6,301 bases of DNA from a virus (taxonomy: Duplodnaviria; Heunggongvirae; Uroviricota; Caudoviricetes). Shown here piece by piece: positions 923-6,074 of the stretch. The stretch lies in IMG/VR virus record IMGVR_UViG_3300029796_000386; one strand, 5' to 3'. The first letter of the stretch is position 1. The number at the start of each line of letters is the position of its first letter. The notes beneath the pieces are model-generated. The model did no database searches. It was not told where the DNA came from and saw only the letters and a list, made by a program, of their open reading frames with translations. Made by a program: the position numbers and the translations under genes.

Positions 923-927
923 AGGAG
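922..927 (+). promoter_or_regulatory. Shine-Dalgarno sequence (GAGGAG) for wcaM
   Basis: GAGGAG lies 5 nt upstream of the ATG at 933 and overlaps the wcaL stop codon, consistent with tight translational coupling. Confidence 0.7.
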
Positions 928-932
928 AACGC

Positions 933-1016
933 ATGCCATTTAAAAAACTCTCCCGACGCAACTTCCTGACGGCAAGCTCGGCGCTTGCCTTCCTCCATAC
1001 GCCTTTCGCCCGTGCA
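933..1016 (+). other. Twin-arginine (Tat) signal peptide of WcaM, with predicted AxA cleavage after ARA (residue 28)
   Basis: S-R-R-N-F-L-T fits the Tat consensus S/T-R-R-x-F-L-K. It is followed by a hydrophobic h-region (ASSALAFL) and an A-R-A signal-peptidase site before IPAQQ. Confidence 0.8.
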
Positions 1017-2327
1017 ATTCCCGCTCAACAAAGCGTTAACATTAACGACTACAACCCTCACGACTGGATCGCCTCATTTAAACAAGCCTTCAGCGAAGGG
1101 CAAACGGTCGTCGTGCCCGCCGGATTGGTTTGTGACAATATCAACACCGGCATCTTCATTCCTCCTGGCAAAACGTTACACATCCTTGGAAGCCTGCGCG
1201 GCAACGGCAGAGGGCGATTTGTCTTACAGGATGGCAGCCAGGTGACAGGGGAGGGGGGCGGCAGTATGCATAACATCACCCTGGATGTGCGCGGCTCTGA
1301 CTGCACCATCAAAGGGCTGGCGATGAGCGGCTTTGGTCCGGTAACGCAGATTTATATCGGCGGCAAAAACAAACGGGTCATGCGTAACCTGACCATCGAT
1401 AACCTCACCGTTAGCCACGCTAATTACGCCATCTTACGCCAGGGATTTCATAACCAGATTATCGGTGCCAACATCACCAATTGTAAGTTCAGCGACTTAC
1501 AGGGCGACGCCATTGAATGGAACGTGGCAATTAACGACCGTGATATTTTGATATCTGACCATGTCATCGAGCGCATCAACTGTACTAACGGCAAAATCAA
1601 TTGGGGCATTGGCATAGGTCTTGCGGGGAGTACTTACGATAACAACTACCCGGAAGACCAGGCAGTGAAAAACTTTGTCGTGGCGAATATCACCGGATCG
1701 GACTGTCGACAGTTGATCCATGTTGAAAATGGGAAACATTTTGTTATCTGTAATATCAAAGCCCGCAATATCACGCCGGATTTCAGTAAGAAAGCAGGCA
1801 TTGATAACGCGACAGTCGCTATTTACGGTTGTGATAATTTCGTGATTGATAATATTGAAATGATTAATAGTGCCGGGATGTTAATCGGCTATGGGGTAAT
1901 TAAAGGCAAATATCTCTCGATACCACAAAATTTCCGAGTGAATAATATTCAACTGGATAACATCCATCTTGCTTATAAATTGCGCGGTATCCAAATCTCC
2001 GCCGGGAATGCTGTCTCCTTTGTGGCGCTGACTAACATTGAGATGAAGCGTGCGTCGCTGGAGTTACACAACAAACCGCAACACCTTTTTATGCGAAATA
2101 TCAAGGTGATGCAGGAATCCTCAGTTGGACCAGCATTGAGTATGAACTTTGACATGCGCAAAGACGTTCGTGGTGTTTTTATGGCGAAAAAAGAAACACT
2201 GCTGTCTCTTGCAAATGTTCATGCCGTGAATGAAAAAGGGCAAAGCTCCGTCGAGATCGACAGGATTAATCACCATATTGTTAATGTGGAAAAGATTAAC
2301 TTTAGATTGCCGGAACGGAGGGAGTAG
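933..2327 (+). CDS. wcaM: Colanic acid biosynthesis protein WcaM (464 aa), predicted Tat-exported right-handed beta-helix protein
   Basis: 464-aa ORF with a strong RBS. The N-terminus [28 protein letters not shown] matches the WcaM start as I recall it. The body shows repeated N-I-T / N-L-T / D-N-I segments ([65 protein letters not shown]) typical of the asparagine ladder of a parallel beta-helix (pectin-lyase-like fold). It is the last gene of the cps/wca cluster by position. Confidence 0.92.
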
Positions 2328-2484: not shown

Positions 2485-3480
2485 ATGAACGATAACGTTT
2501 TGCTCATAGGAGCTTCCGGATTCGTAGGAACCCGACTACTTGAAACGGCAATTGCTGACTTTAATATCAAGAACCTGGACAAACAGCAGAGCCACTTTTA
2601 TCCAGAAATCACACAGATTGGCGATGTTCGTGATCAACAGACACTCGACCAGGCGTTAGCCGGTTTTGACACTGTTGTACTACTGGCAGCGGAACACCGC
2701 GATGATGTCAGCCCTACTTCTCTCTATTATGATGTCAACGTTCAGGGTACCCGCAATGTGCTGGCGGCCATGGAAAAAAATGGCGTTAAAAATATCATCT
2801 TTACCAGTTCCGTTGCTGTTTATGGTTTGAACAAACATAACCCTGACGAAAACCATCCACACGACCCTTTCAACCACTACGGCAAAAGTAAGTGGCAGGC
2901 AGAGGAGGTGCTGCGTGAATGGTATAACAAAGCACCAACAGAACGTTCATTAACCATCATCCGTCCTACCGTTATCTTCGGTGAACGCAACCGCGGTAAC
3001 GTCTATAACTTGCTGAAACAGATCGCTGGCGGCAAGTTTATGATGGTGGGCGCAGGGACTAACTATAAGTCCATGGCTTATGTTGGAAACATTGTTGAGT
3101 TTATTAAGTACAAACTGAAGAATGTTGCCGCAGGTTATGAGGTTTATAACTACGTTGATAAGCCAGACCTGAACATGAACCAGTTGGTTGCTGAAGTTGA
3201 ACAAAGCCTGAACAAAAAGATCCCTTCTATGCACTTGCCTTACCCACTAGGAATGCTGGGTGGATATTGCTTTGATATCCTGAGCAAAATTACGGGCAAA
3301 AAATACGCTGTCAGCTCTGTGCGCGTGAAAAAATTCTGCGCAACTACACAGTTTGACGCAACGAAAGTGCATTCTTCAGGTTTTGTGGCACCGTATACGC
3401 TGTCGCAAGGTCTGGATCGAACTCTGCAGTATGAATTCGTCCATGCCAAAAAAGACGACATAACGTTTGTTTCTGAGTAA
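2485..3480 (+). CDS. gne: NAD-dependent sugar epimerase of the SDR family, Gne-type UDP-GlcNAc/UDP-GalNAc 4-epimerase (331 aa)
   Basis: N-terminal Rossmann motif LLIGASGFVG (GxxGxxG) and a catalytic YxxxK (Y-G-K-S-K). The 331-aa length and the MNDNVLLIGASGFVGTRLLE... start match the gne/Z3206-type gene that I recall lying between wcaM and galF in E. coli strains with GalNAc-containing O-antigens. The position between wcaM and galF fits that arrangement. The Shine-Dalgarno is weak (AAAGTGA). Confidence 0.85.
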   Translation: MNDNVLLIGASGFVGTRLLETAIADFNIKNLDKQQSHFYPEITQIGDVRDQQTLDQALAGFDTVVLLAAEHRDDVSPTSLYYDVNVQGTRNVLAAMEKNGVKNIIFTSSVAVYGLNKHNPDENHPHDPFNHYGKSKWQAEEVLREWYNKAPTERSLTIIRPTVIFGERNRGNVYNLLKQIAGGKFMMVGAGTNYKSMAYVGNIVEFIKYKLKNVAAGYEVYNYVDKPDLNMNQLVAEVEQSLNKKIPSMHLPYPLGMLGGYCFDILSKITGKKYAVSSVRVKKFCATTQFDATKVHSSGFVAPYTLSQGLDRTLQYEFVHAKKDDITFVSE

Positions 3481-3722: not shown

Positions 3723-4616
3723 ATGACGAATTTAAAAGCAGTTATACCGGTAGCAGGTCTTGGGATGCATATGTTGCCTGCCACTAAGGCGATTCCCAAA
3801 GAGATGCTACCGATCGTCGACAAACCAATGATTCAGTACATTGTAGACGAGATTGTGGCTGCAGGGATCAAAGAAATCCTCCTGGTAACTCACGCGTCCA
3901 AGAACGCGGTCGAAAACCACTTCGACACCTCTTATGAATTAGAATCTCTCCTTGAACTGCGCGTGAAGCGTCAACTGCTGGCGGAAGTACAGTCCATTTG
4001 CCCGCCGGGCGTGACCATCATGAACGTGCGTCAGGGCGAACCTTTAGGTTTGGGCCACTCCATCTTGTGTGCACGACCTGCCATTGGTGACAACCCATTT
4101 GTCGTGGTACTGCCAGACGTTGTAATCGACGACGCCAGCGCTGACCCGCTGCGCTATAACCTTGCTGCCATGATTGCGCGCTTCAATGAAACGGGACGCA
4201 GCCAGGTGCTGGCAAAACGTATGCCGGGCGATCTCTCTGAATACTCCGTCATTCAGACCAAAGAACCGCTGGATCGTGAAGGTAAAGTCAGCCGCATTGT
4301 TGAATTCATAGAAAAACCGGATCAGCCACAGACGCTGGACTCAGACATTATGGCCGTTGGTCGCTATGTGCTTTCTGCCGATATTTGGCCGGAACTGGAA
4401 CGCACTCAGCCAGGTGCATGGGGACGTATCCAACTGACTGATGCCATTGCCGAACTGGCGAAAAAACAGTCCGTTGATGCCATGCTGATGACTGGTGACA
4501 GCTACGACTGCGGTAAAAAAATGGGCTATATGCAGGCGTTCGTGAAGTATGGCCTACGCAACCTGAAAGAAGGGGCGAAGTTCCGTAAAGGGATTGAGAA
4601 GCTGTTAAGCGAATAA
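3723..4616 (+). CDS. galF: GalF, UTP-glucose-1-phosphate uridylyltransferase paralog (regulatory, low-activity GalU homolog), 297 aa
   Basis: 297-aa ORF whose translation matches E. coli GalF essentially along its whole length as I recall it ([74 protein letters not shown]...). It has GalF-specific G-M-H-M in place of the GalU G-T-R-M active-site motif. RBS AGGTAGGA lies upstream of the ATG. Confidence 0.95.
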
Positions 4617-4874: not shown

Positions 4875-4913
4875 CAGTGCTCTGGTAGCTGTAAAGCCAG
4901 GGGCGGTAGCGTG
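4875..4913 (+). promoter_or_regulatory. JUMPstart element (39 bp) upstream of the O-antigen gene cluster
   Basis: CAGTGCTCTGGTAGCTGTAAAGCCAGGGGCGGTAGCGTG matches the 39-bp JUMPstart consensus found in the 5' untranslated leader of polysaccharide operons, with one or two mismatches to the consensus as I recall it. It sits 76 nt upstream of rmlB in the galF-rmlB intergenic region, the expected position. Confidence 0.88.
4902..4913 (+). promoter_or_regulatory. ops (operon polarity suppressor) element, GGCGGTAGCGTG, the RfaH recruitment site
   Basis: Exact ops core GGCGGTAG followed by CGTG, located inside the JUMPstart. In the transcribed non-template strand this recruits the RfaH antiterminator. 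Confidence 0.88.
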
Positions 4914-4988: not shown

Positions 4989-6074
4989 GTGAAAATACTT
5001 GTTACTGGTGGCGCAGGATTTATTGGTTCTGCTGTAGTTCGTCACATTATAAATAATACGCAGGATAGTGTTGTTAATGTCGATAAATTAACGTACGCCG
5101 GAAACCTGGAATCACTTGCAGATGTTTCTGATTCTGAACGCTATGTTTTTGAACATGCGGATATTTGTGATGCAGCTGCAATGGCACGGATTTTTGCTCA
5201 GCATCAGCCGGATGCAGTGATGCACCTGGCTGCTGAAAGCCATGTTGACCGTTCAATTACAGGCCCTGCGGCATTTATTGAAACCAATATTGTTGGTACT
5301 TATGTCCTTTTGGAAGCTGCTCGGAATTACTGGTCTGCTCTTGATGGCGACAAGAAAAATAGCTTCCGTTTTCATCATATTTCTACTGACGAAGTCTATG
5401 GTGATTTGCCTCATCCAGATGAAGTAAATAATACAGAAGAATTACCCTTATTTACTGAGACAACAGCTTACGCACCAAGCAGCCCTTATTCTGCATCAAA
5501 AGCTTCCAGCGATCATTTAGTCCGTGCGTGGAAACGTACCTATGGTTTACCGACCATTGTGACTAATTGCTCTAACAATTATGGTCCTTATCATTTCCCG
5601 GAAAAATTGATTCCATTGGTTATTCTCAATGCTCTGGAAGGTAAAGGATTACCTATTTATGGTAAAGGGGATCAAATTCGCGACTGGCTGTATGTTGAAG
5701 ATCATGCGCGTGCGTTATATACCGTCGTAACCGAAGGTAAAGCGGGTGAAACTTATAACATTGGTGGACACAACGAAAAGAAAAACATCGATGTAGTGCT
5801 CACTATTTGTGATTTGTTGGATGAGATTGTACCGAAAGAGAAATCTTATCGTGAGCAAATCACTTATGTTGCCGATCGTCCGGGACACGATCGCCGTTAT
5901 GCGATTGATGCTGAGAAGATTGGTAGCGAATTGGGATGGAAACCACAGGAAACGTTTGAGAGCGGGATTCGTAAAACGGTGGAATGGTACCTGGCTAATG
6001 CAAAATGGGTTGAGAATGTGAAAAGTGGTGCCTATCAATCGTGGATTGAACAGAACTATGAGGGCCGCAAGTAA
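4989..6074 (+). CDS. rmlB: dTDP-glucose 4,6-dehydratase (RmlB/RfbB), 361 aa, GTG start
   Basis: Translation [43 protein letters not shown]... shows the Rossmann GxxGxxG (TGGAGFIGS) and catalytic YxxxK (Y-S-A-S-K). It is near-identical to E. coli RfbB as I recall it, including the GTG initiation codon. It is the first gene after the JUMPstart. Confidence 0.95.

What the first reader, a model, noticed from the sequence alone, without database searches (positions are those of the whole stretch)
933..2327. WcaM combines a twin-arginine signal peptide with an asparagine-ladder beta-helix: candidate periplasmic glycanase for colanic acid
The sequence shows a textbook Tat motif (SRRNFLT) with an AxA cleavage site, followed by about 430 aa dominated by short repeats rich in N, I, T and D, the signature of a right-handed parallel beta-helix. 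That fold is typical of polysaccharide lyases, hydrolases and phage tailspike depolymerases. The last gene of the colanic-acid cluster may therefore encode a folded, Tat-exported polysaccharide-processing enzyme (chain trimming or release) rather than a cytoplasmic biosynthetic enzyme. Its precise function is, to my knowledge, not firmly established.
Basis: partly seen in the sequence, partly recalled or inferred. Interest (0 to 1): 0.5.

Follow-up and report, generated by a model that had tools for sequence, protein, structure and literature searches.

The report
WcaM: the cell's own colanidase
The last, functionally unassigned gene of the E. coli colanic acid cluster encodes a Tat-exported beta-helix protein of the same family as the phage enzymes that digest colanic acid, so it is most likely a hydrolase that trims the cell's own slime, which simple assays could now test.

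Summary

The main new result is direct sequence homology between WcaM and phage colanic-acid depolymerases:
- Phi92 gp150 "colanidase tailspike": E 8e-24.
- NST1 CAE, shown biochemically to cut colanic acid into repeat units: E 2e-11.
- PHROG 6117 "colanic acid degradation": E 7e-52.

Three motifs are shared with these enzymes: GDAIEWN, NWGIGIG and RQxxHxE. D192, E195, H263 and E265 are near-invariant across 70 divergent relatives. Distant standalone relatives also carry export signals and sit in Wzx/Wzy polysaccharide clusters.

The closest functional precedent is Pantoea WceF, a Tat-signal, tailspike-like stewartan hydrolase whose loss gives larger polymer.

The Tat signal was already in standard substrate lists and the family is already in Pfam. 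I found no paper that infers the hydrolase function. Verdict: a new member of a known kind, of moderate interest.

The parts
923..927 (+). Shine-Dalgarno AGGAG, 5 nt before the wcaM ATG and directly after the wcaL stop codon (920-922); wcaM reads as the co-transcribed last gene of the cluster
   Evidence: Sequence read. wcaL lies directly upstream on the same strand in 80/80 species loci.
933..1016 (+). Signal peptide, residues 1-28 ([28 protein letters not shown])
   Evidence: n/h/c-region analysis. Disordered in the AF2 model, pLDDT below 50 for residues 1-31. The same peptide (with T10) is listed as a Tat signal in PMC7549933.
951..971 (+). Twin-arginine motif S7-R-R-N-F-L-T13
   Evidence: Regex match. 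R8 and R9 invariant in 30 orthologues. RR motif in 80/80 species genomes and in distant standalone homologues.
1008..1016 (+). A26-R27-A28, predicted signal-peptidase I site with a basic residue in the c-region
   Evidence: Sequence. A basic c-region residue is common among the orthologues. That such a residue helps a signal avoid Sec is established knowledge about Tat signals, not a result obtained here.
1017..2324 (+). Mature WcaM, residues 29-464: a single right-handed parallel beta-helix body with no phage-particle-binding domain
1395..1967 (+). Conserved core, residues 155-345, shared with phage colanidases
   Evidence: phmmer against PDB: 6e0v_A E 8.1e-24 over residues 163-345. BLASTP to a Phi92-type colanidase tailspike, 33% identity, E 5e-26. 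BLASTP to NST1 colanic acid-degrading protein, 35% identity, E 2e-11. PHROG 6117 'colanic acid degradation', E 7.3e-52.
1503..1523 (+). Motif 1, G191-D-A-I-E-W-N197; D192 and E195 are candidate catalytic carboxylates
   Evidence: D192 is D in 68 of 70 sequences, E195 is E in 64 of 70, N197 is N in 66 of 70. Present as GDAIELN in the Phi92-type colanidase and GDGIEMN in NST1 CAE. Intact in 80/80 species.
1599..1619 (+). Motif 2, N223-W-G-I-G-I-G229, on the rung between motifs 1 and 3; a candidate sugar-stacking Trp and glycine-rich floor
   Evidence: W224 in 61 of 70 sequences, G225 in 70 of 70. Identical NWGIGIG in both phage enzymes. Intact in 79/80 species. The functional reading is inference.
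1707..1727 (+). Motif 3, R259-Q-L-I-H-V-E265; H263 and E265 are candidate catalytic or substrate-binding residues
   Evidence: H263 and E265 invariant in 70 of 70 sequences, Q260 in 66 of 70. RQCLHVE in the Phi92-type colanidase and RQVVHFE in NST1 CAE. Intact in 80/80 species.

Best explanation
WcaM is made with a twin-arginine signal peptide, folds in the cytoplasm into a right-handed parallel beta-helix, and is exported by Tat to the periplasmic side of the inner membrane. The signal is cut after A28. There WcaM acts as an endo-glycosidase on colanic acid, the polymer that WcaD (the Wzy polymerase) assembles in the periplasm and Wza exports.

Its active site is the one used by phage colanidase tailspikes. 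It lies on one face of three successive rungs and is built from GDAIEWN (D192, E195), NWGIGIG (W224) and RQLIHVE (H263, E265).

By analogy with Pantoea WceF, the likely physiological effect is to limit or remodel chain length and to help release or clear polymer. WcaM would therefore not add anything to the repeat unit.

Shown here: the gene, the signal, the fold prediction, the homology, the residue conservation and the gene context.
Inferred: catalytic activity, the bond cleaved, the oligomeric state, the final location and the physiological role.
For: (1) Identity and export signal. WcaM is listed or used as a Tat substrate in PMC7549933, PMC8262268, PMC3027627, PMC9604234 and PMC6965018.

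(3) Sequence homology to colanic-acid-degrading enzymes: the only PDB sequence hit is 6e0v, E 8e-24. Phi92-type colanidase E 5e-26. PHROG 6117 'colanic acid degradation' E 7e-52. 242 phage records carry the domain, many annotated as colanic acid degradation.

(4) Link to biochemistry: NST1 CAE converts colanic acid into repeat-unit-sized products with new reducing ends (PMC9143390). It aligns to WcaM residues 155-308 with all three motifs kept.

(5) Active-site-like conservation: among 70 relatives down to about 25% identity, the only near-invariant polar residues are D192, E195, N197, Q260, H263 and E265. They are intact in 80/80 Enterobacteriaceae species.

(6) Context: wcaM is always the gene after wcaL (80/80). 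Relatives 25-35% identical lie in unrelated Wzx/Wzy clusters with Wzc, Wza, Wzy or WcaD, a flippase, glycosyltransferases and an initiating transferase. Most of them carry Tat or Sec signals.

(7) Precedent: WceF has a Tat signal, is a tailspike-like trimer and is a stewartan hydrolase; its mutants make larger EPS (PMC7949094).
Against: - No enzymatic, localisation or mutant data for WcaM were found or could be produced here.
- Salmonella groups treat a wcaM deletion as colanic-acid-deficient and see phenotypes. That fits a gene required for production at least as well as a trimming enzyme, although the hydrolases of other EPS systems are also needed for normal production (from my own knowledge).
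- The catalytic residues of gp150 and CAE are not documented in anything I could read, so 'catalytic' rests on conservation only.
The stacking of the three motifs on one face is inferred from the strand pattern, not measured.
- WceF is a slow, lectin-like enzyme, so a cell-encoded homologue of a depolymerase need not be an efficient one.
Confidence: 0.65

Rival explanations
1. WcaM is an exported beta-helix that binds colanic acid but does not cleave it. It would act as a periplasmic lectin, chaperone or scaffold that guides nascent polymer from WcaD/Wzc to Wza, or that cross-links the matrix outside the cell.
For: WceF shows lectin-like autoagglutination with its polymer and only slow cleavage. 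Salmonella wcaM deletions are treated as lacking functional colanic acid, as expected if WcaM is part of the assembly or export machinery. No activity has been reported for WcaM in any paper found.
Against: The residues that stay invariant between WcaM, its distant cluster-encoded relatives and the proven phage hydrolases are carboxylates and a histidine. Pure binding proteins derived from enzymes usually lose such residues.
Confidence: 0.17
2. WcaM acts on colanic acid by different chemistry from glycoside hydrolysis: a lyase acting at the glucuronic acid of the side chain, an epimerase, or a deacetylase or depyruvylase.
Against: Detectable sequence homology is only to the colanidase family. 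The characterised member gives reducing ends and a product the authors identify as the intact repeat unit, which indicates hydrolysis of the backbone. No Pfam lyase, epimerase or esterase family matches at E <= 0.01.
Confidence: 0.1
3. wcaM is a domesticated or decaying fragment of a phage tailspike gene that sits at the recombination-prone boundary between the colanic acid and O-antigen clusters, with no role in colanic acid biology.
For: The gene has lower and uneven GC (0.47 overall, 0.33 in codons 301-350) compared with wcaL at 0.55. The closest non-orthologous relatives have tailspike-like architecture. Standalone and tailspike-like forms interleave in an unbootstrapped tree. A wcaM deletion had no significant effect on ExPEC virulence.
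Against: The gene is full length in 4629 of 5426 complete E. coli genomes. It has the same position, an intact RR signal and intact motifs in 80/80 species across many genera at 73-97% protein identity. The same protein type recurs in unrelated EPS clusters.
Confidence: 0.04

Closest known systems
Phage colanidase tailspikes / colanic acid-degrading proteins (Phi92 gp150, PDB 6e0v/6e0w; NST1 CAE, HM214492; PHROG 6117)
   Different: WcaM is 464 aa and has a Tat signal in place of the roughly 170-350-residue N-terminal particle-attachment region. It also lacks the C-terminal domains of the 790-804-aa phage proteins. It is chromosomal, is the last gene of the biosynthetic operon, and is made by the polymer's own producer. 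Its activity and oligomeric state are untested.
Pantoea stewartii WceF (PMC7949094)
   Same: WceF is encoded inside a Wzx/Wzy exopolysaccharide cluster of a related enterobacterium. It has an N-terminal Tat signal of 28 residues and a tailspike-like right-handed beta-helix without a capsid-binding domain. It hydrolyses its own cluster's polymer to repeat units, and its loss gives larger polymer. This is the best model for how WcaM probably works.
Glycosidases or lyases dedicated to other exopolysaccharide systems (alginate AlgL, Psl PslG, cellulose BcsZ, succinoglycan ExoK, Vibrio VPS RbmB)
   Different: Most of these have other folds and families and belong to synthase-dependent pathways. No sequence relationship to WcaM was found.
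GH28 polygalacturonases and PL6 lyases (pectin-lyase-like beta-helix superfamily)
   Different: No Pfam match to any GH28, pectate-lyase or Beta_helix model at E <= 0.01. Sequence identity in the structural alignments is 8-14%.

Membership tests
Twin-arginine (Tat) signal peptides | S/T-R-R-x-F-L-K-type motif at the boundary of the n- and h-regions | tested here: met
   SRRNFLT at residues 7-13. RR invariant in 30 orthologues and present in 80/80 species.
Twin-arginine (Tat) signal peptides | Moderately hydrophobic h-region, and a c-region with A-x-A and often a basic residue | tested here: met
   h-region of 13 residues with mean Kyte-Doolittle 1.03; c-region TPFARA containing R27.
Twin-arginine (Tat) signal peptides | Export that depends on TatABC and on the RR pair | not testable with these tools
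   WcaM is listed or used as a Tat substrate. The primary export study (Tullman-Ercek 2007, cited) was not readable here.
WcaM / colanidase domain family (Pfam PF27800 'WcaM'; PHROG 6117; NCBIfam NF007517 / TIGR04004) | Significant match to the family profiles | tested here: met
   NF007517 1014.7 bits (cut-off 808) and TIGR04004 963.4 bits (cut-off 794.6). PHROG 6117 E 7.3e-52. PF27800 is precomputed on all orthologues and named WcaM. That model is absent from the local Pfam copy.
WcaM / colanidase domain family (Pfam PF27800 'WcaM'; PHROG 6117; NCBIfam NF007517 / TIGR04004) | Conserved motif triad GD(A/G)IExN ... NWGIGIG ... RQxxHxE | tested here: met
   Motifs start at residues 191, 223 and 259 in WcaM, 386, 420 and 457 in the Phi92-type colanidase, and 341, 378 and 416 in NST1 CAE.
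WcaM / colanidase domain family (Pfam PF27800 'WcaM'; PHROG 6117; NCBIfam NF007517 / TIGR04004) | Endo-hydrolysis of colanic acid to repeat units | not testable with these tools
   Shown for NST1 CAE in PMC9143390. Nothing was found for WcaM.
Right-handed parallel beta-helix (pectin-lyase-like) fold | Stacked three-strand rungs forming a right-handed beta-helix | tested here: met
Right-handed parallel beta-helix (pectin-lyase-like) fold | Internal asparagine ladder | tested here: inconclusive
   The N-aliphatic rung motif is enriched, 10 occurrences against 2.5 +/- 1.4 in shuffles. Coordinates could not be inspected, so stacking of the Asn side chains is unverified.
WceF-type cluster-encoded tailspike-like EPS hydrolases | Tat signal, beta-helix body and a location in a Wzx/Wzy EPS cluster | tested here: met
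   for WcaM; for WceF.
WceF-type cluster-encoded tailspike-like EPS hydrolases | Sequence homology to WceF | tested here: not met
   phmmer against all PDB chains at E <= 10 returned only 6e0v. This assumes the published WceF crystal structure is in that PDB copy. WcaM therefore works like WceF but is not filed as a WceF family member.
WceF-type cluster-encoded tailspike-like EPS hydrolases | Native homotrimer | not testable with these tools
   The structure tool predicts single chains only.
GH28 polygalacturonase family | Match to the Glyco_hydro_28 profile | tested here: not met
   No Pfam-A family matched at E <= 0.01. The similarity is structural only.

The most novel reading that the evidence does not exclude
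WcaM is the missing termination and release step of the colanic acid pathway. It would be a periplasmic endo-colanidase that cuts the growing undecaprenyl-diphosphate-linked chain, setting polymer length and freeing it from the lipid carrier. That would explain why colanic acid is shed as slime, whereas the related group 1 capsules, whose loci have wzi but lack wcaM, stay attached. In addition, cell-encoded WcaM-type genes and phage colanidase tailspikes would have exchanged the catalytic body repeatedly, so that phages attack the slime with a copy of the host's own processing enzyme.
Probability: 0.2. Interest if true: 0.7.

Novelty: new member of a known kind. Interest (0 to 1): 0.5.

Why it matters
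Colanic acid is the standard model of a Wzx/Wzy-dependent exopolysaccharide. Among the papers I could read, a 2022 account of the 20-gene cluster assigns roles to 19 gene products and says nothing about WcaM.

Assigning WcaM to the colanidase family gives a concrete biochemical hypothesis with named residues to mutate (D192, E195, H263, E265). It also gives a predicted phenotype: larger, more viscous or more cell-bound polymer, as seen for wceF.

Three practical consequences follow:
- Strains with wcaM deleted are widely used as 'colanic acid-negative' controls in Salmonella biofilm work. If WcaM is a trimming enzyme, those strains may make altered polymer rather than none.
- Colanic acid production strains are limited by polymer size and viscosity and currently need added phage hydrolase. 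Tuning wcaM could do this from within the cell.
- The shared catalytic body in host and phage is a clear example for studying how depolymerases move between bacteria and their viruses.

Tried and rejected
- The local Pfam-A copy gave no hit for WcaM. The family (PF27800) exists only in a newer release and showed up through precomputed annotations.
- A profile search with 15 distant standalone homologues hit its candidate limit and returned only 9 proteins. That was enough for three gene-context look-ups but not for a census.
- Four primary papers were not held: Schwarzer 2012 on Phi92, Tullman-Ercek 2007 on Tat signal peptides, Stevenson 1996 on the cluster, and Ledeboer and Jones 2005 on the Salmonella wcaM mutant. 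What I recall of them is not used as evidence.
- Searches for WcaM together with tailspike, glycoside hydrolase, hydrolase, depolymerase, mucoid, undecaprenyl or helix found no paper that assigns a function.
- Model coordinates are not exposed, so I could not measure carboxylate distances, check the asparagine ladder, or superpose on the ligand complex 6e0w.
- The neighbour-joining tree has no bootstrap, and the origin of most sequences (phage or cell) is inferred from architecture only. I use it only to say that the two architectures interleave.
- A cytoplasmic biosynthetic role (glycosyltransferase, polymerase or modification enzyme) was considered and rejected. WcaM has an export signal, matches no such family, and the other cluster proteins already account for those steps.

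Full report
**What is in the window**

The window is an E. coli chromosomal segment that runs from the end of the colanic acid cluster into the O-antigen cluster:
- the 3' part of wcaL (17-922);
- wcaM (933-2327);
- an SDR epimerase gene (2485-3480);
- galF (3723-4616);
- rfbB (4989-6074).

All are on the + strand. The window is 100% identical to NZ_CP148378.1, which carries these annotations.

The finding's coordinates are exact. 933-2327 is a 464-codon ORF beginning at the first available start codon. An AGGAG ribosome-binding site lies 5 nt upstream, immediately after the wcaL stop codon. NCBIfam calls the product WcaM at equivalog level, 1014.7 bits against a cut-off of 808.

**Check of the observation**

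The N-terminus [28 protein letters not shown] has the features of a Tat signal:
- a +4 n-region;
- the motif S-R-R-N-F-L-T;
- a short, weakly hydrophobic h-region (mean Kyte-Doolittle 1.03);
- a c-region ending A-R-A, with a basic residue at -2.

R8 and R9 are invariant in 30 orthologues (75-97% identical to the window protein) while the rest of the signal varies in length and sequence. An RR motif is present in all 80 species-level genomes examined.

The mature protein is 11.0% Ile and 10.1% Asn. A rung-like motif (aliphatic-x-aliphatic-x-N-aliphatic and its mirror form) occurs 10 times against 2.5 +/- 1.4 in shuffles, with 0 of 2000 shuffles reaching 10. I chose that pattern after looking at the sequence. 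Thr and Asp are not enriched, and I could not inspect an asparagine ladder directly.

**Fold**

I used an alignment of 30 orthologues for the prediction. AlphaFold2 gives a model with mean pLDDT 81.5 and pTM 0.80. It is almost entirely beta-strand, and residues 1-31 are disordered, as expected for a signal peptide.

- Foldseek against the PDB puts 6e0v first, 'colanidase tailspike protein gp150 of Phage Phi92', at E 2.3e-10. GH28 hydrolases, PL6 lyases, alginate epimerases and other tailspikes follow.
- In the viral structure library, the top six matches are colanidase or WcaM-annotated tailspikes and tail-fibre proteins.

The right-handed beta-helix is therefore well supported as a prediction.

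**The key result: homology to colanic-acid-degrading enzymes**

This goes beyond fold resemblance.

- A sequence search of all PDB chains, even at E <= 10, returns only Phi92 gp150: E 8.1e-24, WcaM residues 163-345.
- A full-length Phi92-type 'colanidase tailspike' (804 aa) aligns at 33% identity, E 5e-26.
- PHROG 6117, annotated 'colanic acid degradation', matches WcaM residues 86-460 at E 7.3e-52.
- 242 phage genomes carry the domain. Many annotate it as colanic acid degradation, and a few as 'WcaM'.

The phage NST1 'colanic acid-degrading protein' (HM214492) has been characterised biochemically. Purified enzyme converts colanic acid into products of repeat-unit mass with new reducing ends, and lowers polymer size roughly 80-fold in fermenters (PMC9143390). 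This enzyme aligns to WcaM residues 155-308 at 35% identity, E 2e-11.

WcaM, the Phi92-type spike and NST1 CAE share three motifs with similar spacing:

| Motif | WcaM | Phi92-type colanidase | NST1 CAE |
|---|---|---|---|
| 1 | GDAIEWN (191) | GDAIELN (386) | GDGIEMN (341) |
| 2 | NWGIGIG (223) | NWGIGIG (420) | NWGIGIG (378) |
| 3 | RQLIHVE (259) | RQCLHVE (457) | RQVVHFE (416) |

In the model, each motif lies in or next to the last strand of three successive rungs. They should therefore line up on one face of the helix. This is an inference from the strand pattern, not a measurement.

**Conservation**

The family is small: 187 representative clusters out of 1.84 billion. In an alignment of 70 members of at least 330 aa, down to about 25% identity, the only near-invariant polar positions are these:

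| Position | Conserved in |
|---|---|
| D192 | 68/70 |
| E195 | 64/70 |
| N197 | 66/70 |
| Q260 | 66/70 |
| H263 | 70/70 |
| E265 | 70/70 |

This is the pattern expected of a catalytic centre. It argues against WcaM being a binding-only derivative. All three motifs are intact in essentially every Enterobacteriaceae species examined: 80/80, 79/80 and 80/80.

**Context and distribution**

- wcaM is present in 4643 of 5426 complete E. coli genomes and close to full length in 4629.
- In the one-genome-per-species collection, the 80 best of 191 matching genomes nearly all carry Enterobacteriaceae names: Escherichia, Citrobacter, Salmonella, Enterobacter, Kosakonia, Leclercia and others. The exceptions are a few unclassified records and one labelled Vagococcus.
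- wcaL is immediately upstream on the same strand in 80/80, and galF lies downstream in 79/80.

More distant standalone relatives (25-41% identical, about 330-500 aa) mostly begin with RR signals, and a few with Sec or lipoprotein-type signals. Three of them, on unrelated metagenomic contigs, lie inside Wzx/Wzy-type polysaccharide clusters. Their neighbours include Wzc-like co-polymerases, Wza, Wzy or WcaD-type polymerases, a flippase, glycosyltransferases and an initiating phosphotransferase. The link between this protein type and Wzy-dependent polysaccharide loci therefore extends well beyond colanic acid.

The long relatives (about 550-1000 aa) carry the same body behind N-terminal extensions and lack signal peptides, as tailspikes do. 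One of them, P0126, is 40% identical to WcaM over residues 32-434. In an unbootstrapped tree the two architectures interleave. That pattern suggests exchange between cells and phages but does not prove it.

**How it most likely works**

WcaM folds in the cytoplasm and is exported by Tat. On the periplasmic side it meets colanic acid, which is polymerised there and exported through Wza. It cleaves the backbone as the phage enzymes do.

The best functional precedent is Pantoea stewartii WceF (PMC7949094):
- it is encoded in the stewartan Wzx/Wzy cluster;
- it has a 28-residue Tat signal;
- it is a trimeric tailspike-like beta-helix without a capsid-binding domain;
- it hydrolyses stewartan to repeat units, slowly;
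- wceF mutants make larger polymer, up to 7.6 MDa.

By analogy, WcaM probably limits or remodels chain length and helps release or clear polymer. WcaM is not a WceF family member, because no sequence similarity was detected. The WceF paper does not mention WcaM or colanic acid.

**What remains uncertain**

- No activity, localisation or clean phenotype data for WcaM were found.
- Salmonella groups use wcaM deletions as colanic-acid-deficient strains and observe phenotypes. This is compatible with a requirement for production, as is known for the hydrolases of some other EPS systems, and it keeps a non-catalytic assembly role alive as the main rival.
- Fold alone cannot exclude lyase or epimerase chemistry. 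However, sequence homology is confined to the colanidase family, and the characterised member behaves as a hydrolase.
- A decaying phage remnant is unlikely, given strict synteny and motif conservation across genera.

**Novelty**

Several elements are already known. The gene is known. The Tat signal is in standard substrate lists. A Pfam family named WcaM exists. Phage annotators have noticed the similarity.

What I could not find in 8 million searchable papers is the reverse inference: that WcaM itself is a colanidase-type hydrolase and the counterpart of WceF. A 2022 paper on the cluster assigns roles to 19 of its 20 gene products and is silent on WcaM.

I therefore class this as a new member of a known kind. 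A specialist would not be very surprised, but the result turns a long-unassigned gene into a directly testable enzyme, with named residues and a predicted phenotype.

Noticed in passing
window 1683-1982 (wcaM codons 251-350): GC content drops inside wcaM to 0.43 (codons 251-300) and 0.33 (codons 301-350). The 5' third of the gene is 0.51-0.59 and wcaL is 0.55. The gene may be mosaic, or shaped by recombination at the boundary between the colanic acid and O-antigen clusters.
   Followed up: partly
window 4902-4909 (+): The ops core GGCGGTAG lies in the galF-rfbB spacer, as expected for the JUMPStart/RfaH element ahead of the O-antigen genes.
   Followed up: no
window 2485-3480 (+): An SDR-family epimerase gene sits between wcaM and galF. 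RefSeq names it N-acetyl-alpha-D-glucosaminyl-diphospho-undecaprenol 4-epimerase. No NCBIfam model reaches its cut-off.
   Followed up: no
window 960-962 (codon 10): This strain has SRRNFLT, whereas most E. coli WcaM sequences and the published signal peptide have SRRTFLT. The variable x position of the Tat motif differs.
   Followed up: partly
L001 14775-15369 (gene runs off the locus): The metagenomic EPS cluster that holds a standalone WcaM-like protein also encodes a 944-aa protein with Big_13/Big_6 repeats around a WcaM domain. This is a third architecture for the domain, probably a surface or secreted form.
   Followed up: no
L078 (NZ_JBQPOM010000031.1) and protein P0055: A record labelled Vagococcus sp. 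WN89Y, a Gram-positive genus, carries a 75%-identical WcaM with enterobacterial wcaL and galF synteny. The assembly is probably mislabelled or contaminated.
   Followed up: partly
phage records MG065650.1 and MG065656.1: Two roughly 150-kb records named 'Campylobacter phage' B15 and C3 carry colanidase segments with the same coordinates, identity and near-identical scores as those of E. coli Phapecoctavirus and Justusliebigvirus phages. This is odd for the stated host.
   Followed up: no
protein P0093 (761 aa): One metagenomic protein joins a 95%-identical WcaM to CoA_binding_3 and Bac_transf domains (WcaJ-like). It is probably a gene-call or assembly fusion rather than a real architecture.
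   Followed up: no
literature: PMC6128206 and PMC8171120: Group 1 capsule loci have wzi and lack wcaM, while colanic acid loci have wcaM. Salmonella biofilm studies use wcaM deletions as their only colanic acid-negative genotype. If WcaM is a processing enzyme, that genotype may not be a true null for the polymer.
   Followed up: no
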